A program made the position numbers and the translations under genes. Positions 30,136 to 61,339 of a stretch of 64,000 nucleotides of DNA are shown piece after piece; the stretch's first letter is position 1, and the number at the start of each line of letters is the position of its first letter. Source of the DNA: Xylographa opegraphella (lineage: Eukaryota); the NCBI GenBank assembly GCA_022813865.1, contig JALDZX010000022.1, positions 1-64,000 of the forward strand, read 5' to 3'. Below the pieces are notes generated by a model. It worked only from the letters and a program-made list of their open reading frames with translations. It searched no databases and had not been told where the DNA came from.

Positions 30136-30280
30136 TTGGATTCAACACAGTTAGTGCTGTTATCAAAACGATCATATTTTGACGGGGGCTGCAGTAGCAG
30201 TAATGAAAATTACAGAAGTCGTGAGGGTATTGTTCTCCCTGCCTGATATATCAAGTTTTATTTTCGCAACAAGTCTGGCG

Positions 30281-37196: not shown

Positions 37197-37267
37197 TTCG
37201 GAAGACTTTGTATATATATGGATACAGTAATTAAAGATAGTTGGTTTTGTAGAACGAGCGGTTCAAC

Positions 37268-42343: not shown

Positions 42344-43376
42344 ATGGAAGCTTGTGAGTTCTTTAGGTGCTACATACCGTCACGTTTTCATACCGCTAAC
42401 GACTGTTGCGGTATAGATAATCCGTTCGCAAAACGGGAGTCGCACTCTCAACGCTCTCTGCTTGCTTACAAACTTCTTACCGTTGCATCGTGGTTCCTCG
42501 TCCACGTAGTGGACATTCACTTTGGCTTCAATGCGCCGGTCGGGGATACATCCGGGAGGTCCATATGGGGACAGAATAAAGCTCATCCCACGCCGTTCTC
42601 ACTAAATCCACAGATTGTTGATATTTACTGGTAAGAAGCTCAGACTGGCTAAGACGTAACAAGTACACTAAGCAGAATTTAGGATTGTTATCCTAATACT
42701 TCAGATCTACTACCTCTTCATCCTGTGGTCCAGTAATGCCGACGATGTGACTCCAGTTGCAAATATCGGGTCACACTTTATCATCAACAATCTTCTACAA
42801 TTCGCATTTGTCATGATCTGGGTACATTACTTTCCGGGACACTTCTGGATTGCAGAGATCATGCTTCTCCTCAACTTCTTCAATCTATCTTCCCTCTACT
42901 TTCGTCATTCGAGAATGCCTCGTGTGATACATATTGCTGTCGTGAGCGGTCCGCTAGCGTGGAACTTTGTGGCCATCTTTTGGTGCGGTGCAGCTATGGT
43001 GAATGCGCAGAACTTGGCTGCAAGGATTTTGGCCAACATCGCGATTTGGGGCATACTCGGGTACGGACTGTTTATGCTGGCTGCGTTCAAGGACTATACC
43101 ATGGGATTCGAGCTGAGTATACTTGCCGCATGTAAGTAGCTCCTGCTCGCCTCTGGAAATTTATTGACGATTTTTGTAGCTCTCGGGGCTCATCAGTTCT
43201 TCATCAAGACTTTTGCCTTTCAGTGGATCTTCGCATTCACCATTATGTCGGTCCTCTTTCTTGCCACCCTTGCTATTGCAATTCCCGGCTTTTTTGGCAA
43301 AGAATTGAGCTTCCGGAGAGAGGGGGATATCGTAGATGCGGATCGCGAAAGACAGCCGCTCTTGAATGATGCTTGA
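42344..43376 (+). CDS. Fungal membrane protein (DUF1774-like); exons 42344-42353, 42417-42630, 42683-43131, 43180-43376
   Basis: NPFAKRESH, VGSHF-like IGSHFIINNLLQFAFVM, VVSGPLAW, QWIFAF, ERQPLL. Three GT-AG introns keep the frame. Confidence 0.8.
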
Positions 43377-43823
43377 AATAGTTGCCAAGGATGGCAAAGC
43401 GAGCGTATGGAAAGGTAGATGAGCATAGGTCAATAAAAATTGCAATGAGAGACGTATGAGGTAGAGGACGATATTGTCCATAGGGGGACGGACCTATTCT
43501 AGGAAGCATTGCAAGGAGTTTTCTCTACTTCTAGTAGCCGTAGAAGTTCCAGGAGTGATGTACTCCTATTGAGGGGTCGAGAAGACCTTGCAGAATATCA
43601 GTATCACCATTAGTACATTAGATAATGAGCAGCAGTGTTTGAAAGCACAACAACGGTTGTATTGTTCCATGTCTAGGCTGAGCCGTGCTCCTGCCCCAAC
43701 ACTTATGTTAGCCAATGTCTTCCACAATGTCCATTTCTGGTAAGTTGAAAATCGTCTTCCCCGCTCAGTTGTTTGATGCATACAGAAATATATATCTATA
43801 AGATTTTGCTCGAACAAAACCAC

Positions 43824-43973
43824 GGGGAATTAGCGCAATGGTAGCGCGTGGCTCTCCTAGTACTCGGACGAAAGTCGTAGTCAAGCCAAGGTTGAGGGTG
43901 TAGGTCTTTCCTCAACTTTGATTTTACATTCCCCAGTATACTGATTTCCTACAGTCGAGTCCCTTGTTCCTCG
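43824..43973 (+). tRNA. tRNA-Arg(CCT) with a canonical intron (43860-43882) and a spliceosomal-type intron (43900-43954)
   Basis: Acceptor stem GGGGAAT/GTTCCTC, D-arm GCGC-AATGGTA-GCGC, anticodon stem TGGCT/AGCCA with CCT at 43856-43858, T-arm GAGGG-T|TCGAGT-CCCTT, discriminator G. Mature length 72 nt. T5 run at 43987. Confidence 0.9.
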
Positions 43974-44317
43974 ATATGTTGTCTTGTTTTTGCAGTTTTT
44001 GGGACTATTTGGCCTGCGTTGTGGGCGGAACACGGACCGCCAAAAACCTCGCTCGCTTGGATCGTCAGTTGATTGATGTCTGTCTCGTCAGTTTCTTTTA
44101 GCTCTCTTCGAGTTGCACTTTCGGATCAGATTATCGTTCCAGCATGCTGCGTGTGCTTAAGAATTTCACTTTGTAATGGTCACACAGTTGATCACGGGCA
44201 TACACATTCATGGTATACGTTGAAGCTACTGGAAGACTATTGAACAATAAATTGGCGCTAGCTTTTGTCCCAGGCATATTCTTATCTCCTCAATAAACTT
44301 GAGCATACCCCCGAACG

Positions 44318-45368
44318 ATGCCTTTCTCCCACCACAGTCATTCGGGTCAATTCTGCCTTCATGCGAAAGACGACCTGGAAGCCATTGTCCAAACGGCCAT
44401 CAGTAAAGGGATGGGGACTCTGGTCCTGACCGAGCACATGCCTCGGGACCAGGAGACGGACCTGTACCCAGAAGAGGTTGGTTCCTCGCCCACCATGAGC
44501 TCCGCACGCTGAGTGGGGTTTAGATCGAAGCTGGCAGCACGACGGACAGCCTGTTCAAGACATTCGACGACTACTACATCGAAGCAAAACGACTGCAGTC
44601 GTCATACTCGCTACAGATAGACATCCTGGTTGGCGTGGAAACAGACTGGATACGCCCATCTTCTGAGCAGCTTATAGGAAACCTCATAGAAAAATACAGC
44701 TTCGACACCCTGATCGGCTCCGTGCACCATGTCCATGGTATTCCCACGGACTTTGACCGGGAAACATACGAACGGGCTCGGGCGGTATCTGGAGGCACGG
44801 ATGAGATGCTCTACGCGGATTACTACGATGCGCAGCTGAAGATGCTGGAGGCAGTGAAGCCACCGATTGTGGGCCATTTCGATGTCATCAGACTTCTGAG
44901 CGATGACCCGAATGCGAGCATGAAGAAGCACGACGTGGTGTGGAATAGAATCTTCAGGAATCTATCCTTCATATCAAGCTACGGTGGTATGCTCGAAATC
45001 AACACGGCGGCACTCCGGAAAGGGATGGATGAGCCGTACCCGCAAGGCGAGGTCTGCCAGGTTCGTTGCCGATACGCTGTCGGGTGATTTGGATGGCTAA
45101 TGAAGCCCAGGAGTTTTTGAAGATGAACGGAGCGTTCGTCCTGTCGGATGACAGTCACGGCGTTGGTCAAGTGGGATTCGGCTTCACGAGGGCGGTGGAG
45201 TTCATGGAAGGTATAGGTGTCCGGACGTTGATCGTCCTGCAGCGGGGACTGATGACACGAGACGCTCGCTTCCGAGGAGTGTTCGGACGGCCGGTGCGTG
45301 TCCCAGACCTTCAGAAGAAGCATACGTTCTTCCAGGCTCCAGGCACTGCAGCAAACAGCCGGCCATGA
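44318..45368 (+). CDS. HIS2: Histidinol-phosphatase (PHP family); exons 44318-44476, 44524-45060, 45111-45368
   Basis: MPFSHHSHSGQFC, LTEHMPR, GSVHHV, VGHFDVIRL, EINTAALRKG, LSDDSHG. Confidence 0.94.
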
Positions 45369-47474
45369 GAGCCACATACCAGGATCATTATCAGTGGCCA
45401 GAACTTCCTTGCGATTGATGTGACGAGACTAAGACCAGCTATCCAGCGACGCGTTTCGGCAGATCCATTGTCGGAGCATTGTACCCAATCAACACGGTCT
45501 CGCGGTCGGTCTGGCTCAGTTGGCATGTGAGGTAAGTTGCTTGCAGCTTGGTAAGGTAGCGTATACCTCTTTCCAGCAGTCCCACAAGAGAAGGCCTAGA
45601 ACTCTGCGCGACGTCTGGGCAAAGAGGGGCAGAGAATAGAGGGGCCGAGTCCGAGAATAGCACCCCGCTTTTGCGACTCAGGTACCTGGAGAACGGGCCT
45701 TCGGAGGGACCGCCGCTAGCTTTCAGCAAAGTTGAATGAAAACCGAGACTGCGTCGATAACGACATCGGAGAAGGCGGCGGAGGTATCTTTGCTCGTCCT
45801 TTCGACGCTTCCTCTTTACGTGATCTGGTCATGAATCCTTACTGGACTAGCACCACGGGTTACAGCTGCCAGCACACAAAGACATGGCCATCGGTATCTA
45901 AGGTACTGGGATGAATTGATTGCGCACCATTCTTGCAGAGCTATCTACCACGATGACGAACTGCTCCCGTTGGATAGGGGATGAGCGTGGCCTTGGATGA
46001 TTGTCCGTAGCAGTTCCTCTCTCCGGATGTACCAGGGACCCAGTACGGCTGTCGTGTCACGGCCGGCGACGGGAGGATGCCGCATACTCAACCGCATACG
46101 CATTGCCGCTTCGGATGGAGGCGCATATGCATCTCCTACCTGAGCTACGGAAGGGGCAGTCGGGAGCAGAGCCTGATGGTCTCTACACCGAAGCCGGGTC
46201 AAGAGAGGCAGCCCCGTTGACGTTGATGACGGTCGGTCCCTCGAGATGCTCGCAGTGATCGGGGGCTCTGCGCATGCATCGTGACTGCTCTGGGGGCGTC
46301 GGTTCACAGCAGATCGAAGAACGGGCTGAAGATTGCTGTTGAGATTTCGTGTGGCGGCTGCAGGGACCAAAGTATCGACCTTCTACGATGGGCAAACCGA
46401 ACCTGGATCCTGTAATCCGGTAAGGTATCCTGTACGGAGGACTCCGTGGACCGTATCCTGTATCCTGTATTATTCAATCTAATGTACCACGTACAGTAGA
46501 TACATTAGGTACCTTCTGCTTCATCCTTCGCCCCTCTCCCGTCCGCCTTCCCGCCGCAGGTCAGTTCCTCCGACGCGGGCCCTGCCACCCGACTGATACA
46601 GCACCCCGGGAATGGATTATTCCATTTCGTAATATGAATGCCCTTGACCACGCCTCCACGCCAAGCGACGAAAGCTCTGCCTACTCGCTTCTGCTGATGT
46701 GCGTCTCGCTTGTGGTGGATCGAGCAGTGGAGCCAAGTGGGATGTGGCCCGCCCGAATCACCACTGGGTGCGTTTGCGGACTTCCATCATCCGTCCTCCG
46801 CAATCATCCTCCCCCCCCAAAAAAGAACACTACCCTCACACCAGCGAAGCAGTCTGAGCAACCAACATCCTAGACGGCATCCACTTCCTCTGCCCGCGTC
46901 CAGCGACCCCCCTCCTTCGTCCCACACGCCTCCCAAGGTCCCCAAAACCCACTGACTGTGGTCGTTGCATTGGCCACCTTCGCAGCCGGCTCACGGGAGT
47001 TGGCAGCCATCGCTGACAGGACCCCGTCGAGGACAGGCCTCAGACAGGCCTCAGTCAAGCTGAACGGCCGGCCTCTGCTCTGACACCACAATGGCGCACT
47101 CGTGCTCCACCGGGGGGAATAGGTCCCCATATTACCAATGTGACCTAGCTACCCACCATCACAAACATAAAGGTACATTCCTCCGAAGCTTGCCCCTCCT
47201 TCTCCACCCCTTGCTCGGAGCTGCAGTGAATTGACTTTGGCCTCCCCATTCACTTCGGCCGACTAACTGAAAAGACCTTAAAGATTCCCGGTCCTGCCGT
47301 ACATTGGCTTCGAAGTTTATTCGGCGACGAAGTCTCTTCCATAGCTGACATACCGACAACGTCGTCCTGCCTCGTACCAGGACCACCTTCACTTGAATCC
47401 ATACTCTCTGAGCTTGTTACCTTCGAGCTTCCTCTCCCGTTACTCAACGGGTATCACCTCGACACTTTTCCACA

Positions 47475-48368
47475 ATGGGTGTCACTCGGAAGGTTGTGAA
47501 ACCGGGCAATGGTGTGGACAGGCCGAAACCGGGAGACGAAGTCACTATCGAATATACGGGCAATCTCTACGACGAGTCAAAAGGCGCGAGTAACGACTAT
47601 CGGGGCAAACAGTGAGTCGTTCCCCCAGCACCGTTAATACGGATACTGGAGCAAACGAACAGGTTCGACTCTTCCGTCGGCCGCGGAGACTTCAAGACGG
47701 CTATTGGCGTTGGAAAGGTGATCAAAGGTAGCGATCTCCTCACCGGGTCCCGGGACATTGAAGCTGGTCTGACATGTGCAACACCAGGATGGGACGAGGG
47801 CGTTACGGATATGACTCTGGGTGAGAAGAGCGTCTTGACAATCTCAGGGTGAGTGCTCTCCGCCCACTGCTATTCCCGAATATTCTGCCACATGCTTGTT
47901 ATCTTTTGAAGTCGATTTGCTGATTGTTCTTATGTACTAGCGATTATGCATATGGCGACCGGTAAGCCACCCCCACGCCAGTTGCTGTTGGTTCTCCCAC
48001 GCAGCTCGTTCCCTCTTCCATATCACCTGCCGGAGTTAGGCGTCAAAGCACAAACCACTAACAGGGGTCAACCCGTTCCATAGTGGCTTCCCGGGTCTCA
48101 TTCCGCCGAACTCGACCCTAGTCTTGTAAGTGCTACCACGTCCTCACCGATCTTTCTACCAGGCCACAAGAGACCGAGGCTGTCTTCGGCGAAAATTCTT
48201 TACAGTTATGTTGTTGTGGCCTTGTCCTGCTAGCCAGCACGTGTGTGTCTCTGTCTTGTTTATTATCGTACAATTCTATTGCATTGAGCTATTTATGACC
48301 GAGGCTTGACTGACATTCATTCTCTTAGCGTGGTTGAGTTGAAAGGAATCGGCAAGAAGATGGCTTAG
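47475..48368 (+). CDS. FPR1: FKBP12 peptidyl-prolyl isomerase, 121 aa; exons 47475-47611, 47663-47727, 47788-47848, 47941-47961, 48084-48125, 48329-48368
   Basis: Spliced product MGVTRKVVKPGNG...YTGNL...QFDSSVGRGDF...GKVIKGWDEGV...[28 protein letters not shown]. Five GT-AG introns. Not in the ORF track because the exons are short. Confidence 0.93.
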
Positions 48369-51300
48369 ACTCACCGTCTCTCATGTGTGACTCGACCAAC
48401 GAACACGTGGGGCGGTCGGGACTACTTGCTGTACGTACGGCGTTGGGAGCCGCTGCCGGTAAAGCTTTACGACTTTCCTCACGCACACCTTTCAAGTTAT
48501 GACGACTCTCCTTTTGAATCAATCAGAAGAATAGACTGCTTGAGGTTTCCACATCGATGGATGACTAATGCAATCTTTCTTTCTCGCTGCACGTGAAGGA
48601 CTGGTAAACTCATATAACTTCGATGTTCACGGTTCACTATCTGCTTGAAGCAATCATACACGCAGATTGTTGTCGTGTGTCCTCTGCCATCTGCCCAACT
48701 GCGCCAAATTCATTCATCTTTCGAAGCAAACGTGATCTTTATGATCATGTGCATGGCTCTTCTCGGTTATTGTAATGACCGACTCACGAATCTTCTGCAT
48801 AATATCACCAATGCTCTCTTGTTCATTCTTGTCGTCTTCTTCCACTGTCTAAGTACCCATAATCATCACCGCCGCCATTCTGTCGTCTGTACAGCCGTTT
48901 CTGACTCCTAACTGCCTCTCAATCGTTGCAGCATTTGCCCTGCCAAGTATATCGGAAAGCTTGGTTCTCTCCGTGGGATACGCTCGCATAGTCAATGTCG
49001 ACCGGATTGAGCTGGGTTACGATTTCTTGTGTGAGGCGCGCTGATCACTCCGAAACGCTCCGTCTCTCGATGTGTCTTTTACACACTTCCAGATCATCAT
49101 TCCCATGCTTGCTTACTGTATTTTTCGTTTCCTCTCCGTTCACGGTGGTTCCGTCCGTGGTTTTCGAAGTGCTTGTCTCTTTCATGTGTGGGTTGCAAGA
49201 TTGCTTGTTTCATGGTATATATGAGTGTGGCAATTTGTATGGATGATATTGGCTTTTGGGCGTGGCGAGTAGCACCACCGAGCCGAAGGCAGAAGCGGGA
49301 TGGGATTTGCTCACCGTCATTGCGGCAGAACCACTAGCGCACCTTAGAAGTCTTCGCCGTATCAATTAGATCTTCCTGACGAAACAGTCGGCGGGGACTT
49401 CAACGCTGTTTTGTCCTGCGCGAGCGACCGGTCGAGACTTCCTTATCTCCGTGGCTTACGTTCCGTCTGTCGGCAAAGTCTACAGAACCAGAACCTTCTC
49501 GTGGATTATTGATACCACTTCATGCACTTGCGGCCCTTTACCGCAGCTGGAGGTAGGCAGCCGAGCACTACAAGGAAGCATCACCGGTATCTGCCGGCAC
49601 AACACTAGTGGAAGGAGGCAGGTGTTCGCGGGTAGCGCGTAGGTGAATGGGTACGATGGGGTGCTGTCTTTTATATGGTAGTCTGCCACGATTGCAGAGA
49701 AATACTGCTGTGGATGGGGGGCATGTGCTGAGGTTGGTTGTTGTACTAACCGGGTGGAAGTTGCATTGCAGTTGTGTGATTGGGGTTATACGATTTGCTA
49801 CGAAATGTGCTACGAGATCCAGCGCTTAGGGGAGTATATGTTGGGAGAATTGTTGCCGAACCTATTCACTCTGTCTGCTGCCGGACGGAGTGGCGTCCTT
49901 CCGTCAAATGCCGTGAACGCGAATCCGGGAGCGAAAGGTTTGGACAATGGCTATATAGAGAAAGGATCCCGAAGGCCTTGGAGAAGAGAAAGACAAAGAT
50001 TATCGGCCTGCGCAGGGGATTGCAGAGGAAGAGGAAGTGCTCGAATGAGGCCGAGATCACAAGGGCGGTACGTGGTCCGCAACTGGACCTTCGCAAATGT
50101 TATCGGACGCTGGCTCGACGATCCTCTGGCACACTATTTATCTTGGGGGTGTTACGTTTTGCACCTTGGTAATGGATTGTGATGGTGGTGATGAGCTTGG
50201 GGACCCTTTAGCAAGCAAGATATATCACCGCTCCTGGATGGCTTGCGCGACCTGGGTAGGTAAGTAGCGACAAGCGTACTGTCGTATAGTACGGACGTTG
50301 CGCTGGTGCGCTGGCCGCCAACCCGTTGCTAGAACAGCTTTCGATCACACAGAGCTGAAAACGCACCAGGGCGTGTGAGCCCAGAGGTCCAGTCTCGCTT
50401 TGTCGTGAGGACTTGATACCGATGGATGCGGCGAGGTTCTGATTACTTCAGCATGATCGTGTTTCTGCTCGAGCTAAGGAAGGATACAGAAGACTAGGTC
50501 GCTTTGCGTACGATTACCTAAACGTCGAAACGCGTCTCGGGTAGTATTTCTGGTGAGATGTGCCTGGATAGGAACGACGTCGTGGAGTGTTTTTATACCA
50601 GCTTTGGCTTGCGTGGGCTATCGAGCTTATCGAAGGACCGAGGAAAAATCCTGACGGAGAGGCGGTGTGTATAACGCGAACAAGGGAACAGTCGGCCATT
50701 TCTATTCATTTTATTGCTTTGGGGATTTGGGACTTATATCGGGGATGAAAATTTCTGGAGAACAACCGAACTCCCTGGGATGGGCATTGGCTCGCCGCTC
50801 ATGCCGAAAGAGATCTACCTACGTTGGATAGGATGCTCATACGCCTTTCTCGCCATTGCCAGGCTCAGGTGCTTTGCGGGTCTCGTGCAATGGATTACTT
50901 ATGACTTGGTAGTCGTTGGGTGGCCTACCTTACCTCGCGGATGGATTTCTCAGATGATAACGTGGTCGACTAGCATTGCTCGCTTTATCTTACTGGTATA
51001 TTAAGACTATAAAATGCTGAAGGAGTTTGATCTTCGTTCATGGCGAGGGATGCGGAGAAATGAGTGGCCCAGCAGCAGAAGATGGCTAATAGCGAGTTTG
51101 ATATGTATCGTCACCACATGCGATTCCCGCTGAATAAGCCCTTTACAAAGTACTGGCGCCGGTGGTTTCCTCCGGCTGGTGAAAAGAGAGCTATTTGGAT
51201 GTGGGCTTCGAACATGCGGCTGATGCGCGTATCAGTCGTGGATCTTGAACGCAGAACTTCTCGTGGATCTTTGAATGCAGAACTTCTTCTTTGCCGAGAC

Positions 51301-54300
51301 TCGAATCTCTCGGGTGCGCTTTTCTACCATACAGGATTGTCACTTTACCAATATATTCAAAAACGGCGCGGGGACTGCAAGTCACGGGTGAACGCTCAAT
51401 GCGCCAAAGCCAACGCACGTGTGCCCAGCTCAAACGGCAGAAACAACCGCCGCTGGAATCCCGTAAAAAAGATACATCACGTACCGAGCAATCTTTCTCG
51501 TCGGAAGATCTAGCGGGGTAGAAGCTCAGGAGAGCTTCGAACGCTGTCTTGTTCCTTCGCCAATGCCTTATTGTGTAGGCTGCATCAGTCTCGCACATAC
51601 AGGATTTTCAGCACGTATCATGAGACTGATAACGGCGAATATTTACTGCGCTGTGGAAACGACACGGTTGAGTCTCACGCCTTGGGCTCCGTCGTCTGGG
51701 CTGCGTTGACATTTTGGTAGCATTGTTGTACCCACCAGATTCATAACCATTGGAATTTTTCTTGATTCGCTAGGCTTCAACAACCAGGTATAAATATCGG
51801 ATCTGCTACTTTTCTCTATCCAAGTTGACCTCACCGGCTCTCTCGCCTTTAACTGTTTGGAATAACCTCATCTGTCCTTTTGCTTTTCACTTGTTACTTG
51901 GCCTTGTTCTCCAGACGGTCGGAAGGATCTTCTTACTCGGTATATAGCTACTCATGGTCGGCAAAGTTTTCGCTACAGCTTGTTGTATCGAAGATGCTCA
52001 CATGATATTACTTGGCTGGATACGATCGAGCAGGAGGGGCATCATATGACAGCTGTCTATATCAGAAGCCCCAATCAAAAAGTCAGCAACCCGGTGACAG
52101 CAGTTTCTTTCGTCACATTGACCTGAATATCCCACTAGTCATTTGCCGACTCCAGAAGGGAAAATCTGATTCAGGGCTCTGTCTCGGCCGATCGTCAGGT
52201 CATTCGGATCGATAACAAGCTCTGGACCCCGGCAGATGCGAAGAAGTACCGCTTGAGCTTTCGCACCTAGGTATGTTCGGTTGGTCAGGTACGAATTTCA
52301 CTCGTCCGTTTACCTATGGAGCCAAAGGTCCCAGTTACCCGTGTTCGACAGACTGTTTTGCCTTGGTACGTAGGAATTCAGGAGGACCATGAGCAAGTTA
52401 CATCCATCGTACATGATGGCGCGGCCTCAAGACGATGGAAGTCGCCCTCGCAGACTACAGCCTTATATTTGAGTATCATTACAGGTTCGCGTCAGTGCAC
52501 TTTTCAACTTATTTTTACGGCTGTTCATTCCAAGCAACAGTATATACATGTATATCATCATATGTTTCGTCATCAGACCAAGTGTAGACTATGGTTCATC
52601 CTTTATTTTGTCCGCTTGTGGATTGTCGTTGGAACTATTGAAAGCCTACCTTGACGCTGGTCTCTTTCTCTCGATGATATCGCTATATTTGCACCGGATA
52701 TAGTGCAGGTCAATCTATGTCGCAGAACACCAATTGCTCTCAACGAGACCATGCCAGGAGCGGATCTGATTCACGTTAGCAGAATAGATGCATTCATCGA
52801 ACAGCAGAAGTCGGTGGGTTTTCTAAGCCTGGCGATTAGCAAAACACTCGAATTCCTATAAAAAGCAGATCGTCTGGCCATAGCGTTCAGCCGTGCTATA
52901 AATTCCTTGGTAGTATCCAATAACTACAGTTTCATCAAACAGCGTCGAGGTTACGATACCTTCAACACCGTGGTGGAATATTTCAAAAAGCATAAATGTG
53001 CATCGCTACTAAGATCTTGCAGAGCACAATGAACTGGTAAAAAATTTAAAACGAATCGAAAGCAATCTCCGCAGGACACCGTGGGCAGTGAGAGTTAGGA
53101 TGGATGGGCAGTTGAGATCCATCAAGTCAACCATGAAGACCTACCAGACAACCGAGACTTCTCACAAGCCATTAAGGCCAACGTTTCCGAAAACCTAAGC
53201 TCAGCTCAGCTACTTACTGCCGTTCGACGACCCCACCTATCGGGTACCCTCTCCTCGGAGTCGCCACCGGGATGTACCCGACCAGCACGGTAAGCTTTGA
53301 CTGTACGCGGCGCATCAGACGATGTGTAGACCTCCACCGCACTGGGAACTTATCAATTGGACGTATGTTACCAGCAGGCTGTACACTGCTAACGACGAAC
53401 GGCTCTTTCTCATGAAGCACGAGACGGGTAGAGCTTGACTACACCCGTTGAGAGTCGAGGCTGTAAGGATATCTCCATTCGAAACCACTGCTTTAACCCG
53501 GGGGTAGATGTATAAGCCAGAGCACGATCAATGCAAAACAAGAAGGAGACAGCAGTGTTGGAACGGATCATAGAAGAGCGTGTACCTCGTTTTGAGCAAG
53601 CTGATGAGTTCACAGGAGACTGCCACTTGTAAAGATACAGGCGGATATGTTTTTCGCAACTGGCATTATGCCACAGCATTGGTACGACTATCAGGTTAAA
53701 GGAGACAACGAATCAACTGCCGAAGAAGACATTGAATCCGAAGCCGGGCAGGAAGCCACCAACTACAATGAAAACGGCATATGGGCTCAGTATAGATATA
53801 ACGTGGATTACTACGAGCCATACATCGACCATGGAAATGAAGCTACAGCAAACTTCACCGTCCCTAATTAAAATTATAGAGTTATTAAGTGCGGACTATG
53901 CAAGCGCAACTTTACCATTAAGAATGAACTTTACAGATATTCTCGCGAGGAAATATGGTCCAAGCCTTCAGTAATAATACCATCCAATCCTGCGGAAGTT
54001 ATCAAAATTTTGTTTTACCTCATCTAAGGATCAGGTCTTTTCATCTCATTGAAATCCCGACACAGTGCTACCATTTGTTGCGAAAATGCATACGTGGCAG
54101 ATCAGGAGCTCCATCGACTATTGAAACATACACGTGGACAATATGTCTCGGCAAGTGAATAGCAAATTCAAACAGAAAATGTGTTGGCGGGAAAACTTCA
54201 GCATATCGAGTTGAGACCGAGGAAACAATGGAGAAGCCACTGTTGTATATGCTACGAGCAATTTGAAGGCAATGAGTTGGAAACGGTGCACCTCAATAAT

Positions 54301-56496
54301 GGAGACAATACAGAAATGGTAAAAGACTCAAAAGAATGCTCCTCACTTAGCCTGGCGCCATGACGGAGGTCGGCCTGCTTGTCCTCGACGAGCTTCAGGA
54401 AGTACGAGGTGTCATGTCTGGTATGTTTTCTGTCTTGATGCATTTGATTGCCTGGTCTCGGTGACATGTCTTCACCGGTGCTACGGAGAAGCACTCGCAC
54501 AGCAGCAGAATCGTGTTCTTATCCACTATTGGAATCTTTAATACATACACAGATCGATTGGTTTGGGTGAAGCGATAAAAGCTTCGGTGAGGTTGCGAAG
54601 GGCAAGAAGGCCTACCAGAGCTTGCTGTTACTGTTGTCGAAGGGAAATTATATGTGCACAGGCTTTACCAGTCTTTTCTATATATATATGACTTTGTATG
54701 GCTTCTGATGGATAAGATCAATGTCTTTATTACTCAGCTACTCATTTTGAATCTACAGCTAGATGTGGGTTGACGCGGGTGCTGTCGATATCGATGGGAC
54801 CCCATTGCAGGCAAAGGAGTGGACTTGCCCCTTATGTATTCATGCTTCAAGTTGGTAGCCTATTGTATTTCCATGTGTTCATATTCAAGTGGGTGATCTT
54901 TTACATTTTCATATATACCATTCTGCGCTCATATGTCCATGCCTTTGAATCTTGATGTCACTTGTGATTATTCTGTCGTTCTTTAGAAGCACTCATATCT
55001 CCTGCACTCTTTATGTTGGATCTTATCTGGACCCTGGAAATCAATCCTACAACTATCTCAACCTCACCAGGCCCACGCGCTTTTCAAACTCGCCGAGCAA
55101 GTCCATAAGAAAATACACTTCATGACAACATCGTCATCATCCTATTAGGCTCAGTCAATAGAGACCGTGCTGTTCAGATGTGCCCAAGCAGCGTCCTGGG
55201 AACTCGTACTCGCTCTGTACACATACGCTCAATGAATACAACGATCTCAATGACCCGATCAAGATATCAACTTCCGCTTCGCAGCAGTCATATCCAGAGC
55301 TGTCAATAATACCATACGCTACAGACTATCAGCTTTTGTCGGCTTCGACAGACGCTTCCGACATCTGGGACGGGATGGACCGCCGTATCGGGCGGCTGTT
55401 CGGCGACACGTCCAGCGGAACACACACACGGCTGTATATAGCGCACGTCGCAAAGCATGGGCGCCTCCCCACGAGGAAGCTGGCGATAAAAATCGCCGAG
55501 AGCCCAGAAGAAGTAGTGCGACTTATGGAGGAAGCCCGGTTGGCAACCCACCATCCATACGTGCTCGACTGTGCTCCAGACAGCCAGAATCGCACTATCT
55601 CTCAGTTTAAAACCCTCATTCGGCTTCGTTCCAATGGTAGATTGGAGCAGGACACTGCGAGAATGCAGAAACCATGGCAGAGCGTGGCCAGACGCACAAT
55701 GTCACCGGTGGTCCGCCTACAAGAGTACACGAATCAAGTCTGGCATTGAACGGGGAGGACGACGGACTGCAAGCCGAGCAGAGTGGGATGTTCGCTTTGC
55801 AGAAGCAATTGGCCGAAACGTGTCGTGGAGACTTTCGCTGCAGCGCCGTGGCTTCCACGGGAGCGAGCGGTAAGGGCTCGGGGAGCTGCTGTGGGTACTG
55901 TAGATATACGTTTGAAGTGCTGGATCCATCTGCCGTACCGACTGAAGCGGTAGTGGCATCGTGAGCAGAAGCACAGGATGCTGAAGAAGCACAGAACGCT
56001 GAAGAAGACGACAACTTGGAGAAGGGGCGGATGAACATGAATGAAGCTACATATTCATAGGCGATCATGCCATGCAACGCTTCATCATCTTCTTGAACGG
56101 TTAGCTAAGACCAAAACTAGCAAGATAGACAGACACCTGGCACGACCAGATCAACGACCACGGCTTAACCCTCATATTTACAGTGTAGATTCGCAATGGC
56201 ATTACAAGTGCAACTGAACTTTCCGTCCAGTCAAAGCGCTACTTCATCACTGGGCGACTCGTGCTGCTTCAGAACAACAATAATGATTTCCATGAGATGC
56301 GTGATGTTCCAAACGCTTGAGTCGCCAATATGCCGACTGTTCAAATTCCAGGTCCACATCCGCTAACCCTCCTTGACAAGCAAAACGTCCGATGCCAAGT
56401 CACACTCCTCGCTAATATCAATACCCCAAGACAGCTGTATTCAACAAGCCACGAACCCAAGTCAAATCCAGCCCAAGAACATCGCGCCGCTGGCCG

Positions 56497-58569
56497 TCAA
56501 CATTTTAGTACCATCCCAACCCACCAGTCCACAAACTCTTGCAAGCCCAATTGCCTCGACGGCGTCCCTCCGATCCCAACGACCTCTTTCCCCAGGCCCT
56601 CTCTTTCCCTCCACTCCTTCTCCGCTTTCTCCCCAGCTCGCCGCACAATCTCATCCTCATTCTCCGCCCGATACAGATCGCACCTGTCGCACTCCCCACA
56701 CGTCCCGCCGGCCGGTCGGAAATGCTGGCAGAAATGGCGGTAACCCTCGCCTTCGCCATCACCGCCGCCTTCCTGGGCCTGCGCTCGAAGTATGATGTTC
56801 ATTTCGTCAGCTGGCTGTCGAATGACGTTTTGCGCGGCTGACGTCTTACGCCCGAGGCCTTGACGGCATATATAGCACATAGTGTACCCACAGACGCAAA
56901 CCATCTTGTTGCAGCCACTGTCTTTGACAAAGCCGAGGCCGCATCTGGGGCAGGTGCGTTTGAGTGCAGCGGTCCTAGCGGCTTCAACGGTCGTTCGAAG
57001 GGAGAGTGTTGCAGATTCATGGCACATGTGCGGATCCTGCCAAGGCTTGTGGCATTGAAGACACGAGGTACGAAGACAGGATGGTGAACGGCATTTGAAG
57101 CGAGAAGACAGGTAGGTCTTACGAGTTAGCTTGTCGCAGGAGTGATTAAGCAGCACCGAAGGCGCAGGGAGAGCAAACAGCCGTGCAAGAATGGCATATA
57201 GACAAAGCAATCCAAGGAAGTTGAAAGACACGGCAAGTAGAAGCAGTGTACGAACAGGCCGCGAGGTATTGAGACCCCAGCCAAGACTGTTAGAGAGATA
57301 GAGCTCATCAGCCTCGGCGTAGTTGCAAAACGGGCACCGCACGAGAGGAACTTGTGCTTTGATAAGCGCTTGATCGGCTAGACGTGACTCCAGCTTCTTC
57401 CACATCTGCACTCCCCCTTTGGCGCTATGACCGATCGCTCGGTAGGCGAGTTCGTGGGGTATGCAGCCGTTGCAAGGTATGGGATCTGTTGGAGCTAAAC
57501 AAGCTATCTGACCTCGGGTATGATCAATATTGAGACCCCATGATTGGCCGTAGAGTGCCTCTGAAACTGCATGCTGTATACAGTTGAAGCAAATTATATG
57601 GGTACCCGTCGTGCAAGTCGCCATATGCTCAAATGTCGTCTCTGAAAAGCAGCACTCGCACTCGTAAAGAGCACTGGCTTCTTCTGCCTCTTGCTCGTTG
57701 AGGAGGGTTGCAAGCTCAACATTGATGGCCTCTTGTGCTTGATGGCGCTTCTCAAGTAAAGGTTTCAAGATTGTCCTGTAAAGCTCAGAGTCAAGTTCCT
57801 TGTTTCCGCTTTCTCGTAGACTGGGGATCGGAACTGACCCCCCTTCTGCAGTTTTCGTCCAAATGAGCATAAAGTGTTTGTCTGATACTTCTTGCGCAGG
57901 CTTTCGCCACTTGAGCAAAAACGTAGAGAAGCTACTCCTCCAACTCTTGCTTGCTAGCCCTAGCAGCACCGGCCTCGAAGAAGTGTAGTAATGATTTTGC
58001 TCGGCCAAAACTCCGTCTACTGTACTTCGATTTAGGGCTTTAAACTCTTGATACAACACAGTCCTCACTGCTTGCTTGTAGTTTTCTGAGCGGAACAGTT
58101 CGTGTACAGGCACTTGTATCCTATCTCGGCCATCACCCACATCTCCTAGAAGCTGCCGGATCTCGGAGTACTGCTGCGGAGCGTCCGATCGAGTGTCCAG
58201 TCTATTGATGCGCCATCGGCTATTGACCCACTTGGCCTGGTGTTTGATCAACTGCTCCGCTACTATGTGCAGTCGGCTGTCTCCACTAAATGTACCAAGC
58301 ATCTCTCGAAAGACCTCAGGACGAACATTCGGAAAAATGTCGGCAAGCACGAGAAGGGCGTTGTTGAGGTCCGCAAGACTGGCGAATTTCCTGGGAGCCT
58401 GAGTGAAGACATCCCCGGCAGATGCCAGGACGGTCGAGAGCTCAGTACTGGCTGATCGGATGGTCTTAGGGACGGATGTACTCGAAGATGGGGAACGGAA
58501 TTGTCGTCGGCGGCTTTCAGACGGTAACTGCTCGTCTGAGCGAGAGGAGCGAAATGCGGCGAAGACCAT
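56497..58569 (-). CDS. RBR (RING-IBR-RING) E3 ubiquitin ligase with a CUE-like N-terminus (RNF216/TRIAD3-like)
   Basis: LADIFPNV (CUE-like), ECECCF...HIICFNC, RCPFCNY, SCLQCHKPW..HMC, CPRCGLGFVKDSGCNKMVCVCGYTMCYICR. First in-frame ATG at 58569. Confidence 0.9.
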   Translation of the reverse strand: MVFAAFRSSRSDEQLPSESRRRQFRSPSSSTSVPKTIRSASTELSTVLASAGDVFTQAPRKFASLADLNNALLVLADIFPNVRPEVFREMLGTFSGDSRLHIVAEQLIKHQAKWVNSRWRINRLDTRSDAPQQYSEIRQLLGDVGDGRDRIQVPVHELFRSENYKQAVRTVLYQEFKALNRSTVDGVLAEQNHYYTSSRPVLLGLASKSWRSSFSTFLLKWRKPAQEVSDKHFMLIWTKTAEGGSVPIPSLRESGNKELDSELYRTILKPLLEKRHQAQEAINVELATLLNEQEAEEASALYECECCFSETTFEHMATCTTGTHIICFNCIQHAVSEALYGQSWGLNIDHTRGQIACLAPTDPIPCNGCIPHELAYRAIGHSAKGGVQMWKKLESRLADQALIKAQVPLVRCPFCNYAEADELYLSNSLGWGLNTSRPVRTLLLLAVSFNFLGLLCLYAILARLFALPAPSVLLNHSCDKLTRKTYLSSRFKCRSPSCLRTSCLQCHKPWQDPHMCHESATLSLRTTVEAARTAALKRTCPRCGLGFVKDSGCNKMVCVCGYTMCYICRQGLGRKTSAAQNVIRQPADEMNIILRAQAQEGGGDGEGEGYRHFCQHFRPAGGTCGECDRCDLYRAENEDEIVRRAGEKAEKEWREREGLGKEVVGIGGTPSRQLGLQEFVDWWVGMVLKC

Positions 58570-58735
58570 CTTCTTAAGGATGGCTGGCGTGTGGGCCCTA
58601 CATGCTGCTGGGAGTGAAAGACAGCTCTGTCCTTTCAGTCGAGAAGAGTGTGTAGGTGCAAAGACCAAGCTATCAAACAAGCCTCAGTCAAATTTGTAAT
58701 AATATTGTAAAATAAGAACTCTCTCGCTTAAAACA

Positions 58736-58890
58736 GGCCTGATGGTACGAAAATACGAAATCGAGTTGAGTTTGTCTCTTTGCTGACAATTTGCACAGGT
58801 CTAGTGGTATGATTGTCGCTTCGGGTTCGCCTGAGTATCTTAGATACTTAGATTTGTGACAGGCCCCGGGTTCAAATCCCGGTCAGGCCC
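58736..58890 (+). tRNA. tRNA-Pro(CGG) with a spliceosomal-type intron (58745-58798) and a canonical intron (58826-58854)
   Basis: Acceptor stem GGCCTGA/TCAGGCC (perfect), TG|GTCTAGTGGTATGAT, anticodon stem GTCGC/GTGAC with CGG at 58822-58824, T-arm CCGGG-TTCAAAT-CCCGG, discriminator C. Mature length 72 nt. T5 run at 58897. Confidence 0.92.
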
Positions 58891-59398
58891 TGAATATTTT
58901 TGTCGTCATTCTCGATCGCGGTACGACGGCGGTACATGGGCACTATCGTCTTTATTCACTGTTGAGAACAATGTATGCACTCACTATAGCCAGACAATCG
59001 GTAACTTTTTGCCAACCTAAACCAAGCGACAGTCCTTCTTTGGGTAGAAATGCCTGGGCGTCTTGACGATACAGATTATTTACGATCCATCGAGCTTGTG
59101 GAAACATCAATCGATTACGCTCTATTGGTCGTTGTGAATAACATCTATTTGAACGTGCGAAATGTGCAGCGCAGAGACGTAGTTTCATACTAGATACCTA
59201 TCATAAGCTCCATACGCGACGTTAAGGAAATGGGGTATTTTAGCAATAGCAACACCAGGAAATGCCATATCAATACAGTGATGATTTCCGTAAGCCATAG
59301 TCCTTCCGTGAAGCACAATATCATCTGCGAGATTCAGCAATAGTCCTCTAAACCATGACACCGTAGCTCCAGTCTTCAATAATATCAACATGCTGTAA

Positions 59399-61339
59399 TT
59401 AAGCTCCTGAGCCCTTAAGCAGATCACTCCCAGCTTGTCGAATCCTTTTCATTTCCTTGTCGACTCGTAGCGATGCCCCGCCGACTGTCTGTTCGCGGTG
59501 GGATATCTCTTCCTCATACTTCGTTGCAATCTTCCTCTTTTCTTGTCTAGCGTCTTTGTACTTGGTCAGGATGTCTGAAAACAGCCCCAATACCATATCG
59601 CCACATTCCTCATATTTGTCCATCGTCAACGACGAAAAGAAAGAGTATAGCTTTTCTGATCGCTGTTCATCTGTGAGATCTTTCAAGTCCTTAACAAATT
59701 CAAATTGCTTGATTAGCGGCCCGGAGCGAACTTCTTCAGGAAATATTTGGACAGAACCTGTAGGGTCGAAGTCGAAACTCTCAGACCTGAGCTGATCGTA
59801 AGTTGTCTTGGACAACTGATCTTCGGTGTAGTCTAGATCAATGATACGCTTCTGACCACGTGCTGATATCACTTCAGACTGGTGAGGTAGTTGGCCGACA
59901 GTTGGGTTCTTACGAAGGGGCAGTACTTTTTCATCGACCCTCACCTCATACGGCGGCGAGTATAACAAATTCTCGTTCAAGTCTACGCCAGATACGGGAG
60001 GTTCAGGTGTTCTGCCATTGCTCCATTCCTGGGAAATATAATGGATTTTCTGAAGCTGTACCGACCGCTGTTGATCTTCTCCTGCTAAAGTTTGATCGTG
60101 TACGGTGTCATGATGATGCTGTCGGGAGGTATTAGCTGGTTGTCGAGCCACTTCCATCGAATGGTGGTGTTGCAGCGGTCTTGAAGGTCTTGCCTGGGCA
60201 GATGTGGTGTTTTTAGTCAACACTGAAACACACAGACTTTCACCTGTAGGTCTCACAGAAGTCTGACTTCGTGGGTTTGACTGTAACACATCCATACCTG
60301 AAGGGGATCGGAAGTTTGCTGCATACGCATTTCTACCTTGCTGATGTGTAATCGCCAGACTTTCGGAGCCTTTTGCCGATGGAATATGAAAAAAGCCAGG
60401 ACTGCTTGACCTACCGCGATACACTACTTCGCGGCATGGGAGGTGGCCCGGGAGATCCAAATCCTCGGCCTCATGGTCGGAAGTTGGTGGAAATCTAAGG
60501 TTTCCAAGTGAACCTCCGGGAACCTGTTGATTGGGATGAATTGTATTCTGCATTGCATCGAGTTCTCTTTCTAGTGCTTGTGCCGTAGCTGGTGGTATCA
60601 AAGCACTCATACTGGAAATATCGAGGGTGGGATCATCTTCAGCTCCCTCACCCTCCCTAGTGCTATCGGACTCGCTGTCATCTTCGTCTTCGGCGTAATC
60701 GGCGCCCTCCCATACATTATAGCGTCCATGAGATCGAGCAGCCATATAACCGGCGTGATCCATTCCAAAGGACTCAACATGCGTAGATATACCACGTACA
60801 TTGTCACTGTCAACTGGCTCCTGTGTGTTACCGCCTTCATCATAAGTCGCTACAGATTGGTTGTGATGAGTCTGGCTGTCTCCTACCTGGACGCCATCAC
60901 TTATCGTCGTGGTATCATCGAAATCGTCGCCAATATCAGTATCAAACCCATCGCGATTATTGTTCTGATGCTGCAAAGGATCTGCTTCGACTATATGAGC
61001 GACCAAGTCCTTGGAGTCCTTGGAGGGCCATGGTAGTTCGGCATCTGGATGAGATGCAACCTCTGACAAGTTCACAGGATCTGGGGCTGCAAACAAAGGC
61101 CTAGAATGCTCTAATCTCGTCGGCTGCTGCTGAATGCGAGCATTTTGGCCTGCTAGCTGCCGTCGCGAGTTGATGGCTGGAGTTAATGGGTAATTTGTCC
61201 TGTTAACCTTGTATTGACGGGATAGCCCATTCTGCGGGTTGATATTTCTGACATCGGGCAAAGCATGACGCTTTAAGGCATCATCGTGAGAAGGACTTTT
61301 TACATAATCAAACAGCGGTTTCTGTTGAGGAATAGTCAT
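59399..61339 (-). CDS. ECM11 C-terminal domain protein
   Basis: Disordered N-terminus, then LDYTEDQLSKTTYDQLRSESFDFDP...FFSSLTMDKYEECGD... and a coiled-coil C-terminus. Confidence 0.8.
   Translation of the reverse strand: MTIPQQKPLFDYVKSPSHDDALKRHALPDVRNINPQNGLSRQYKVNRTNYPLTPAINSRRQLAGQNARIQQQPTRLEHSRPLFAAPDPVNLSEVASHPDAELPWPSKDSKDLVAHIVEADPLQHQNNNRDGFDTDIGDDFDDTTTISDGVQVGDSQTHHNQSVATYDEGGNTQEPVDSDNVRGISTHVESFGMDHAGYMAARSHGRYNVWEGADYAEDEDDSESDSTREGEGAEDDPTLDISSMSALIPPATAQALERELDAMQNTIHPNQQVPGGSLGNLRFPPTSDHEAEDLDLPGHLPCREVVYRGRSSSPGFFHIPSAKGSESLAITHQQGRNAYAANFRSPSGMDVLQSNPRSQTSVRPTGESLCVSVLTKNTTSAQARPSRPLQHHHSMEVARQPANTSRQHHHDTVHDQTLAGEDQQRSVQLQKIHYISQEWSNGRTPEPPVSGVDLNENLLYSPPYEVRVDEKVLPLRKNPTVGQLPHQSEVISARGQKRIIDLDYTEDQLSKTTYDQLRSESFDFDPTGSVQIFPEEVRSGPLIKQFEFVKDLKDLTDEQRSEKLYSFFSSLTMDKYEECGDMVLGLFSDILTKYKDARQEKRKIATKYEEEISHREQTVGGASLRVDKEMKRIRQAGSDLLKGSGA

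What the first reader, a model, noticed from the sequence alone, without database searches (positions are those of the whole stretch)
43824..58890. Candidate system: tRNA genes interrupted by spliceosomal (mRNA-type) introns, two independent cases
Seen: both tRNA genes I found have a normal position-37/38 intron plus a second 54-55 nt insertion that starts GTA, has a CTGAY branch motif shortly before the end, and ends CAG. Size and signals match the mRNA introns of neighbouring genes. The two insertions are unrelated in sequence and sit at different positions (9/10 and 54/55), and exact GT-AG removal gives a 72-nt cloverleaf each time. Known: nuclear tRNA introns are normally removed by the SEN/TSEN endonuclease and ligase; spliceosomal introns occur in some fungal snRNA (e.g. 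U6) and rRNA genes. I am not aware of them being established for tRNAs. Inference: this lineage may mature tRNAs with both machineries, and standard tRNA finders would probably miss or truncate such genes.
Basis: partly seen in the sequence, partly recalled or inferred. Interest (0 to 1): 0.97.

Follow-up and report, generated by a model that had tools for sequence, protein, structure and literature searches.

The report
tRNA genes split by mRNA-type introns
Both transfer-RNA genes in this stretch of a lichen fungus genome are interrupted, besides their ordinary tRNA intron, by a second short intron that looks exactly like the introns of neighbouring protein genes, which would mean two different splicing machineries are needed to make one tRNA.

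Summary
A tRNA-Arg(CCU) gene (43824-43973, +) and a tRNA-Pro(CGG) gene (58736-58890, +) each have a normal 37/38 intron (23 and 29 nt). Each also has a second insertion: 55 nt at 43900-43954 between positions 54/55, and 54 nt at 58745-58798 between positions 9/10. ARAGORN and Rfam find no tRNA in the raw window. Exact removal of the insertions gives two 72-nt cloverleaves. The insertions start GTAGGT and GTACGA, carry CTGAT/CTGAC 10 and 12 nt before the end, and end CAG. Six homology-supported mRNA introns in the window look the same (47-64 nt, branch 10-14 nt from the end, YAG). Only 0.02% of same-length windows show GT, branch and AG. A scan of all 3.9 million deletions of 40-100 nt found no other real tRNA. 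The host is a lichen-forming fungus near Xylographa. Lichen fungi are already known to carry ectopic spliceosomal introns in rDNA. I found no report of such introns in tRNA genes. Splicing is inferred, not shown: there are no RNA data and no orthologous loci. The Arg insertion also destroys the B box in the DNA. Inactivated genes remain the main rival.

The parts
43824..43973 (+). tRNA-Arg(CCU) gene with two introns. The mature product is 72 nt including discriminator G.
   Evidence: ARAGORN after deletion of 43900-43954. Rfam tRNA model positions 1-52 match 43824-43899. Lengths.
43860..43882 (+). Canonical tRNA intron of tRNA-Arg, 23 nt, after position 37.
   Evidence: ARAGORN intron call.
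43900..43954 (+). Extra 55-nt GT-AG insertion between tRNA positions 54/55, in the T loop. It starts GTAGGT, has CTGAT 10 nt from the end, and ends ACAG. It splits the B box as GGT|TCGAGTCC.
43786..43802 (+). AT-rich TATA-like stretch 38 to 22 nt upstream of tRNA-Arg.
   Evidence: Read from the sequence. A promoter role is inferred only.
43987..44000 (+). Two T5 runs (43987-43991 and 43996-44000) starting 14 nt after the tRNA-Arg end. They look like a Pol III terminator.
43740..43785 (+). Further intron-like segment (GTAAGT, TTGAT, ACAG; 46 nt) lying 38 nt upstream of tRNA-Arg in non-coding DNA. It may mark a spliced Pol II transcript.
   Evidence: 8 such strong motifs in the window against a mean of 4.2 in shuffles. 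Not verified by homology.
58736..58890 (+). tRNA-Pro(CGG) gene with two introns. The mature product is 72 nt including discriminator C.
   Evidence: ARAGORN after deletion of 58745-58798. Rfam tRNA model positions 10-71 match 58799-58890.
58745..58798 (+). Extra 54-nt GT-AG insertion between tRNA positions 9/10. It starts GTACGA, has CTGAC 12 nt from the end, and ends ACAG.
58826..58854 (+). Canonical tRNA intron of tRNA-Pro, 29 nt, in the anticodon loop.
   Evidence: ARAGORN. It fits a 3-4-3 bulge-helix-bulge with 4 of 4 central pairs.
58869..58879 (+). Intact B box of tRNA-Pro, the only 10/10 match to RGTTCRANTCC in the whole window.
58697..58716 (+). AT-rich TATA-like stretch 39 to 20 nt upstream of tRNA-Pro.
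   Evidence: Read from the sequence. A promoter role is inferred only.
58897..58901 (+). T5 run 7 nt after the tRNA-Pro end. It looks like a Pol III terminator.

Best explanation
These are two live nuclear tRNA genes of a lichen-forming ascomycete. Each has acquired, independently, a spliceosomal (U2-type GT-AG) intron in addition to its ordinary tRNA intron.

Proposed pathway:
1. The precursor is transcribed. Pol III is favoured for tRNA-Pro. The polymerase is open for tRNA-Arg.
2. The spliceosome removes the 54-55-nt intron in the nucleus, using the 5' splice site, the CTGAY branch point and the CAG 3' site. This step must come first, because the insertions disrupt the D-arm/acceptor junction (9/10) or the T loop (54/55). 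The tRNA body recognised by end-processing enzymes, the exportin and the splicing endonuclease cannot form until they are gone.
3. The restored body is end-processed.
4. The canonical 37/38 intron is cut out by the tRNA splicing endonuclease and the exons are joined by the ligase.

Shown here: the gene anatomy, the signals, their match to local mRNA introns, and exact restoration of both cloverleaves.
Inferred: transcription, actual excision, the order of steps, and function.
For: 1. Exact removal restores complete cloverleaves with conserved T-loop and D-loop residues. Infernal matches break exactly at the insertions.

2. Both insertions carry the full signal set at the right spacing. They fall inside the range of six homology-supported mRNA introns of the window. 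Those introns are 47-64 nt long. Their 5' sites are GTAAGT (4), GTTGGT and GTTCGT. Their branch motifs are CTGAT, CTGAC (2), CTAAC, CTGAG and CTAAT, 10-14 nt from the end. They end YAG.

3. Such a signal set occurs in about 0.02% of same-length windows, and it occurs here twice at forced boundaries.

4. Of 45,645 GT..AG deletions, only these two loci give tRNAs. Of 3.9 million distinct deletions of 40-100 nt, tRNA calls arise at four places: the two loci and two poor false positives inside coding ORFs. So 2 of 2 tRNA genes in the window carry such an intron, and 0 intact tRNA genes are present.

5. The exons show no decay. T5 runs follow both genes within 7-14 nt. Neither insertion has a T run longer than 4.

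6. No bulge-helix-bulge can be drawn at either insertion. The best is 3 of 4 central pairs in any geometry tried, whereas the canonical Pro intron gives 4 of 4.

7. The host is a lichen fungus near Xylographa, with best hits of 87-91% identity. Passages of PMC8527467 state that lichen fungi carry ectopic spliceosomal introns in rDNA. They also state that yeast removed a 57-bp lichen rDNA spliceosomal intron from Pol I transcripts. Passages of PMC5855946 describe spliceosomal introns in the Pol III-transcribed U6 gene and in other snRNA genes.

8. In Saccharomyces and Schizosaccharomyces the tRNA endonuclease sits on mitochondria (PMC10485636 passage). This fits nuclear spliceosomal removal first and tRNA splicing later.
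Against: - No RNA evidence of any kind is available, and no orthologous locus could be compared.
- The Arg insertion splits the B box. No match of 8/10 or better to RGTTCRANTCC exists in 43780-44000. Only chance-level 8/10 matches lie within 43400-44500. Classical TFIIIC-dependent transcription of this gene is therefore doubtful.
- In tRNA-Pro the A box survives at the intron/exon-2 junction (6/7). A start site measured from it would fall inside the insertion and lose the 9-nt first exon.
- The 5' splice sites (GTAGGT, GTACGA) are weaker than the GTAAGT of 4 of the 6 verified mRNA introns.
- Both tRNAs are C34 isoacceptors. By general knowledge (recalled, not tested here) their codons can also be read by U34 isoacceptors, so their loss might be tolerated.
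- A 2014 review states that eukaryotic tRNA genes with D-arm or T-arm insertions are usually taken to be pseudogenes (PMC4090602 passage).
Confidence: 0.6

Rival explanations
1. Inactivated genes. Spliceosomal-type introns landed in two dispensable tRNA genes, by reverse splicing plus reverse transcription or by DNA-level insertion, and killed them. Intact copies or U34 isoacceptors elsewhere do the work. The loci have simply not had time to decay.
For: The B box of the Arg gene is destroyed in the DNA. A-box geometry in the Pro gene is disturbed. A review states that eukaryotic tRNA genes with D-arm or T-arm insertions are generally considered pseudogenes (PMC4090602 passage). Both are C34 isoacceptors, which are often dispensable (recalled knowledge). 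There is no expression evidence.
Against: Exons, splice signals, canonical introns and terminators are all intact in both loci. The two insertions are unrelated in sequence and have no other copy in the window, so they are not fresh copies of one active element as far as the window shows. 2 of 2 tRNA genes in the window are of this kind and none is intact. That is unexpected if such loci are rare wrecks. A dead gene puts no selection on GT, branch point and AG.
Confidence: 0.22
2. Host-transcript variant, nested within the best explanation. The intron is spliceosomal and is spliced, but the tRNA, at least tRNA-Arg, is made from a spliced Pol II transcript and then cut out by RNase P and RNase Z. 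It is not made from a Pol III gene.
For: The Arg locus has no B box in the DNA. A strong intron-like segment (GTAAGT, TTGAT, ACAG; 46 nt) lies at 43740-43785 on the same strand, 38 nt upstream. That is non-coding DNA after the DUF1774 stop at 43376. Motifs of that strength number 8 in the window against a mean of 4.2 in shuffles, and 4 of the 8 are homology-verified introns. tRNA-Pro lies 167 nt from the start codon (58569) of a divergently oriented RING-type gene.
Against: Both genes are followed by T5 runs and preceded by TATA-like AT-rich stretches, as Pol III genes are. tRNA-Pro keeps a perfect B box. No transcript data are available. No precedent for a nuclear tRNA made this way was seen in the papers read.
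Confidence: 0.12
3. The insertions are non-canonical tRNA introns removed by the tRNA splicing endonuclease, as in archaea, Cyanidioschyzon merolae and nucleomorphs. The GT-AG look is coincidental.
For: Non-canonical introns in D and T arms exist in some eukaryotes and are excised there (PMC4090602 passages).
Against: No bulge-helix-bulge can be formed at either insertion, at most 3 of 4 central pairs over all bulge sizes and cut positions tried, while the canonical Pro intron forms one. The motif geometry I used was recalled, not taken from a call. The full spliceosomal signal set appears twice at forced boundaries. Fungal endonucleases are generally held to measure from the mature domain (recalled).
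Confidence: 0.04
4. Chance resemblance, assembly artefact, or tiny degenerate group I-like introns of the kind described in fungal rDNA.
For: Small (56-81 nt) putative group I introns are reported in fungal SSU rDNA (PMC3160393; only the start of the abstract was seen, in the listing). The Arg insertion follows a U and ends in G.
Against: The joint chance of the signals is of the order of 1e-7. The boundaries are exact to the base. The Pro insertion does not follow a U in the placement that ends in G (read directly). Rfam finds no group I or II match. 54-55 nt cannot hold a ribozyme core.
Confidence: 0.02

Closest known systems
mRNA-type (spliceosomal) introns in fungal snRNA genes: U6 (Tani and Ohshima 1989, 1991; Canzler et al. 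2016), and U2, U1 and U5 of Rhodotorula hasegawae (Takahashi et al. 1993, 1996). All are as cited in PMC5855946 (passage read).
   Same: A short GT-AG intron with canonical 5' site, branch site and 3' site sits in a small structured non-coding RNA gene. U6 is a Pol III transcript. The introns are not conserved in sequence and are often species-specific insertions.
   Different: The host here is a tRNA, which is not part of the spliceosome, so proximity to the active site cannot explain the insertion. The gene also carries a second intron of a different class. The insertions cut the internal promoter boxes.
Ectopic spliceosomal introns in the rDNA of lichen-forming ascomycetes (Bhattacharya et al. 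2000, seen only as a citation; Armaleo and Chiou 2021, PMC8527467, passages read).
   Same: The host group is the same: lichen mycobionts. The size is similar: a 57-bp rDNA intron against 54-55 nt here. In both cases the intron sits in an RNA of the translation apparatus that is not transcribed by Pol II. Removal from a non-Pol II transcript was shown in yeast.
   Different: Those are Pol I rRNA genes and these are tRNA genes. The papers read do not mention tRNA: the term tRNA occurs 0 times in PMC8527467.
Non-canonical tRNA introns of archaea, Cyanidioschyzon merolae and nucleomorphs (PMC4090602 passages).
   Same: They are introns in D or T arms, sometimes together with a canonical 37/38 intron, which gives tRNA genes with two or three introns.
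   Different: Those introns are defined by bulge-helix-bulge motifs and are cut by the tRNA endonuclease. In nucleomorphs they are 3-24 nt long. Here no such motif can be drawn and the signals are spliceosomal.
Introner-like elements, i.e. multiplying near-identical spliceosomal introns of some fungi and algae (recalled; not read here).
   Same: They are recently gained short spliceosomal introns in ascomycetes.
   Different: The two insertions are unrelated to each other and have no other copy in the 64-kb window. Genome-wide copy number could not be checked.

Membership tests
Spliceosomal U2-type GT-AG intron | 5' splice site GT with extended consensus (fungal GTRNGT, recalled) | tested here: met
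   GTAGGT fits fully. GTACGA fits at positions 1-5 and has A at +6. Verified local mRNA introns show GTAAGT (4), GTTGGT and GTTCGT.
Spliceosomal U2-type GT-AG intron | Branch-point motif CTRAY a short distance upstream of the 3' site | tested here: met
   CTGAT at 10 nt and CTGAC at 12 nt. The six mRNA introns have theirs at 10-14 nt.
Spliceosomal U2-type GT-AG intron | 3' splice site YAG | tested here: met
   Both end CAG.
Spliceosomal U2-type GT-AG intron | Length within the host's mRNA intron range | tested here: met
   54 and 55 nt, against 47-64 nt for six homology-supported introns.
Spliceosomal U2-type GT-AG intron | Excision by the spliceosome through a lariat | not testable with these tools
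   No RNA data. Needs RT-PCR, tRNA-seq and lariat mapping.
Endonuclease-type (BHB) tRNA intron at a non-canonical position | Bulge-helix-bulge at the exon-intron junctions (3-nt bulges, 4-bp helix; geometry recalled) | tested here: not met
   At most 3 of 4 central pairs in any of the bulge sizes 2-4 and cut positions tried, for all equivalent placements. The canonical Pro intron gives 4 of 4.
Nuclear tRNA gene (Pol III type 2) | Cloverleaf with conserved D-loop and T-loop residues and an anticodon | tested here: met
   Met only after removal of the insertions. The partial Infernal matches agree.
Nuclear tRNA gene (Pol III type 2) | A box TRGYNNARNNG in the DNA (consensus from PMC7954030) | tested here: met
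   Arg 7/7 at 43831-43841. Pro 6/7 at 58797-58807, spanning the intron/exon-2 junction.
Nuclear tRNA gene (Pol III type 2) | B box RGTTCRANTCC in the DNA | tested here: inconclusive
   Pro 10/10 at 58869-58879. Arg has none at 8/10 or better in the gene, because the box is split by the insertion. Met for one gene and not met for the other.
Nuclear tRNA gene (Pol III type 2) | T-run terminator just downstream and none inside | tested here: met
   T5 at +14 (Arg) and +7 (Pro). The longest internal T run is 4.
Ectopic spliceosomal introns in fungal non-coding RNA genes (snRNA, lichen rDNA) | Canonical splice signals inside a gene for a structural RNA, with an intron body that is not conserved | tested here: met
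   The two insertions are unrelated to each other.
Ectopic spliceosomal introns in fungal non-coding RNA genes (snRNA, lichen rDNA) | Absence of the intron from the mature RNA | not testable with these tools
   No RNA data.
Introner-like or transposon-derived introns | Many near-identical copies in the genome | tested here: inconclusive
   No other copy in the 64-kb window; the longest other match is 12 nt. The rest of the genome was not available.
Group I or group II self-splicing intron | Ribozyme core detectable by covariance model | tested here: not met
   No Rfam match at gathering score or at E up to 10 over 43000-59500. 54-55 nt is too short.

The most novel reading that the evidence does not exclude
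In this lichen-fungal lineage a substantial share of nuclear tRNA genes carry spliceosomal introns. tRNA maturation would then routinely need the spliceosome in the nucleus and afterwards the tRNA endonuclease and ligase. Together with the known ectopic introns in lichen rDNA, this would form a lineage-wide brake on the supply of translation RNAs, linked to slow growth and stress tolerance. At least some of these tRNAs, such as tRNA-Arg with its destroyed B box, may be made from spliced Pol II transcripts. Current tRNA annotations of Lecanoromycetes would then be systematically incomplete.
Probability: 0.3. Interest if true: 0.93.

Novelty: new variant of a known kind. Interest (0 to 1): 0.85.

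Why it matters
Textbooks and recent reviews treat spliceosomal introns and tRNA introns as separate worlds. [quoted passage not shown]

A tRNA that needs both machineries would bear on four questions:
- It would show that the spliceosome can work on tRNA precursors.
- It would impose an order on tRNA processing steps.
- It would raise the question of how a gene with a split internal promoter is transcribed.
- It would give a new test case for how spliceosomal introns colonise non-coding RNAs. Reverse splicing into abundant RNAs is the open question named in the U6 review.

It also has a practical side. ARAGORN and Rfam/Infernal miss these genes entirely. tRNA gene sets of lichen fungi may therefore be under-counted.

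It links to the proposal that ectopic introns in lichen rDNA slow growth and raise desiccation tolerance (PMC8527467).

Tried and rejected
- A generic scheme that joined open reading frames across every GT..AG pair, meant to collect mRNA introns, was far too noisy (384 candidates on the + strand alone). I dropped it and used tblastn of homologous proteins instead.
- A loose unanchored pattern (GTRNG, CTRAY, YAG) is no rarer in the window than in shuffles: 113 against a mean of 109.5. It is not evidence by itself. Only the anchored test at forced boundaries is.
- Minimum-free-energy folds of the whole precursors were uninformative.
- Rfam at E up to 10 over 16.5 kb did not show the tRNA halves. 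They appeared only when the exon stretches were searched alone.
- Two scans of the prokaryotic genome collection, made on the off chance of fungal contamination, gave 0 matches.
Orthologous loci therefore stayed unchecked.
- The paper of Bhattacharya et al. 2000 is not held. I know it only as a citation.
- Supplementary files were not consulted.
- Two passages I looked up were irrelevant.
- A group I reading and a bulge-helix-bulge reading were considered and rejected.
- The ARAGORN option -ss, used, turned out not to restrict the strand. The + and - passes gave identical hits. The 7,799,460 sequences scanned therefore stand for 3,899,730 distinct deletions, each searched on both strands.

Full report
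**What is there**

The window is eukaryotic and fungal. Long ORFs carry a CTD-kinase domain, a sugar transporter, a HET domain, PQ-loop repeats, DUF1774 and ECM11. Their best protein matches are Xylographa species at 80-91% identity, followed by other lichen-forming Lecanoromycetes. The DNA therefore comes from a lichen mycobiont close to Xylographa.

ARAGORN finds no tRNA gene in the raw window, without intron search or with it. Rfam at gathering thresholds finds no RNA family.

**The two loci**

Reading the sequence and locating the insertions gives this anatomy:
- tRNA-Arg(CCU), 43824-43973: canonical 23-nt intron at 43860-43882 and a 55-nt insertion at 43900-43954 between positions 54 and 55.
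- tRNA-Pro(CGG), 58736-58890: a 54-nt insertion at 58745-58798 between positions 9 and 10, and a canonical 29-nt intron at 58826-58854.

When the two insertions are deleted by coordinate, ARAGORN calls both tRNAs with their canonical introns. The undeleted loci give nothing. The mature lengths are 72 nt each.

Infernal gives an independent check. The Rfam tRNA model matches 43824-43899 as positions 1-52 (26.7 bits, E 3.3e-4). It matches 58799-58890 as positions 10-71 (24.8 bits, E 1.3e-3). Both matches are truncated exactly at the insertions.

**Is it more than chance?**

- Among 45,645 GT..AG segments of 35-130 nt on both strands, deletion yields an ARAGORN call in 5 cases. These are the two proposed segments plus three odd calls inside the Pro locus.
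- A local scan of all 25,021 deletions per locus shows that only deletions at or within a few bases of the proposed limits restore Arg(cct) (11 calls, plus 2 undetermined) and Pro(cgg) (21 calls). The other calls at the Pro locus, out of 281 in all, are spurious isotypes.
- A scan of every deletion of 40-100 nt at every position covered 7,799,460 sequences, which stand for 3,899,730 distinct deletions. It gives calls at four places only: the two loci and two sites inside coding ORFs. The latter two have badly mismatched stems and no T-loop consensus.
- The window therefore holds two tRNA genes. Both are interrupted, and both interruptions are GT..AG.
- For the signals themselves: of all 54-nt windows, 476 of 127,894 are GT..AG. 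Of these, 25 also have CTRAY 8-30 nt from the end, and 3 also have GTRNG and YAG. For 55 nt the counts are 494, 29 and 3 of 127,892.
- The Arg insertion has one possible placement. The Pro insertion has four equivalent ones, of which one is GT..AG.
- A loose, unanchored version of the motif is no rarer than in shuffles (113 against 109.5). The force of the argument lies in the forced boundaries.

**Comparison with real mRNA introns of the same window**

I mapped homologous proteins onto the window with tblastn. They were Xylographa sugar transporters P0121 and P0122, CTD kinases P0242, P0243, P0315 and P0320, and PHP-domain proteins P0364, P0366, P0373 and P0374. This defines six introns: 14996-15045, 15864-15927, 3798-3851 (seen as an exact 18-residue gap), 1751-1808, 44477-44523 and 45061-45110.

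| Feature | Six mRNA introns | tRNA-Arg insertion | tRNA-Pro insertion |
|---|---|---|---|
| Length | 47-64 nt | 55 nt | 54 nt |
| 5' site | GTAAGT (4), GTTGGT, GTTCGT | GTAGGT | GTACGA |
| Branch motif | CTGAT, CTGAC (2), CTAAC, CTGAG, CTAAT | CTGAT | CTGAC |
| Branch A to 3' end | 10-14 nt | 10 nt | 12 nt |
| 3' end | CAG or TAG | CAG | CAG |

The two insertions are unrelated to each other and have no other copy in the window.

**Other ways to remove them**

No bulge-helix-bulge can be drawn at either insertion. At most 3 of 4 central pairs form over all bulge sizes, cut positions and equivalent placements tried. The canonical Pro intron gives 4 of 4 in the strict geometry. I recalled the motif geometry rather than taking it from a call.

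There is no group I or II signal, and 54-55 nt is too short for a ribozyme.

**Gene context and promoter elements**

Both genes are intergenic.
- tRNA-Arg lies 448 nt after the stop of a DUF1774 gene (43376). It ends 345 nt before the start codon of a PHP-domain gene (44318). All three are on the + strand.
- tRNA-Pro lies between the start (58569, minus strand) of a RING/IBR-type gene and the 3' end of an ECM11-like gene (59399, minus strand).
- Both tRNA genes are preceded by AT-rich TATA-like stretches at about -40 to -20 and followed by T5 runs at +14 and +7. No internal T run exceeds four.

I used the box consensus printed in PMC7954030 (passage).
- The Arg gene has a perfect A box, but no B box at 8/10 or better in the DNA, because the insertion splits it.
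- The Pro gene has the only perfect B box of the window. Its A box is preserved 6/7 across the intron/exon-2 junction.

These facts do not fit classical TFIIIC-guided transcription of the Arg gene, or start-site placement for the Pro gene. They are the main internal evidence against simple function.

A further strong intron-like segment lies at 43740-43785, 38 nt upstream of tRNA-Arg on the same strand. Motifs of that strength number 8 in the window against 4.2 in shuffles, and 4 of the 8 are verified introns. This leaves open that a spliced Pol II transcript runs through the locus.

**What is known**

- A 2018 review of U6 (PMC5855946, passage in the section on splicing of U6) lists spliceosomal introns in U6, U2, U5 and U1 snRNA genes and in rRNA genes. 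It says the determinants of insertion into non-coding RNAs are unclear. tRNA is not in the list.
- Passages of PMC8527467 state that lichen mycobiont rDNA holds ectopic spliceosomal introns. [quoted passage not shown] The word tRNA does not occur in that paper.
- Passages of PMC4090602 describe non-canonical tRNA introns in archaea, nucleomorphs and C. merolae. They say that insertions in D or T arms of eukaryotic tRNA genes are usually taken for pseudogenes.
- PMC12530127 (passage) calls the intron types unrelated.
- PMC10275265 mentions the spliceosome only as a contrast to tRNA splicing.
- PMC10485636 (passage) places the yeast endonuclease on mitochondria.
- Eight full-text searches for spliceosomal or mRNA-type introns in tRNA genes returned nothing relevant. 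The exact phrase 'spliceosomal introns in tRNA' occurs in 0 papers. The library lacks most subscription journals, so this is absence in that library only.

**Verdict**

The best reading (confidence 0.6) is that these are functional tRNA genes with an added spliceosomal intron that must be removed before the tRNA body can fold. The ordinary tRNA intron is removed afterwards. Recently inactivated genes are the main rival (0.22). A Pol II host-transcript route is a nested variant (0.12).

The kind is known: ectopic spliceosomal introns in fungal non-coding RNA genes, notably in lichen rDNA. The host class (tRNA), the two-machinery architecture and the split internal promoter are new as far as I could find.

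Decisive evidence needs transcripts and related genomes. Neither was within reach here.

Noticed in passing
window 43740-43785 (+): A 46-nt segment with GTAAGT, a TTGAT branch-like motif 10 nt from the end, and ACAG. It lies in non-coding DNA 364 nt after the DUF1774 stop and 38 nt before tRNA-Arg. It may be a 3'-UTR or non-coding-transcript intron.
   Followed up: partly
window 30275-30321 and 30674-30720: Inverted repeat with 47-nt arms, 94% complementary, 352 nt apart. It could be a small MITE-like element or a hairpin.
   Followed up: no
window 33483-37262 (-): A 1259-residue open frame without any Pfam match. It lies in a stretch with strong GC skew of about +0.25. It is probably a low-complexity protein.
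   Followed up: no
window 58569-58736: tRNA-Pro sits only 167 nt from the start codon of a divergently oriented RING/IBR-type gene. It therefore lies in or next to that gene's promoter.
   Followed up: no
window 44477-44523 and 45061-45110 (+): Two homology-supported mRNA introns of the PHP-domain gene use the non-consensus 5' sites GTTGGT and GTTCGT. One uses a CTGAG branch motif. Splice-site use in this genome is therefore fairly permissive.
   Followed up: yes
window 24160-26013 (-): A HET (heterokaryon incompatibility) domain gene.
   Followed up: no
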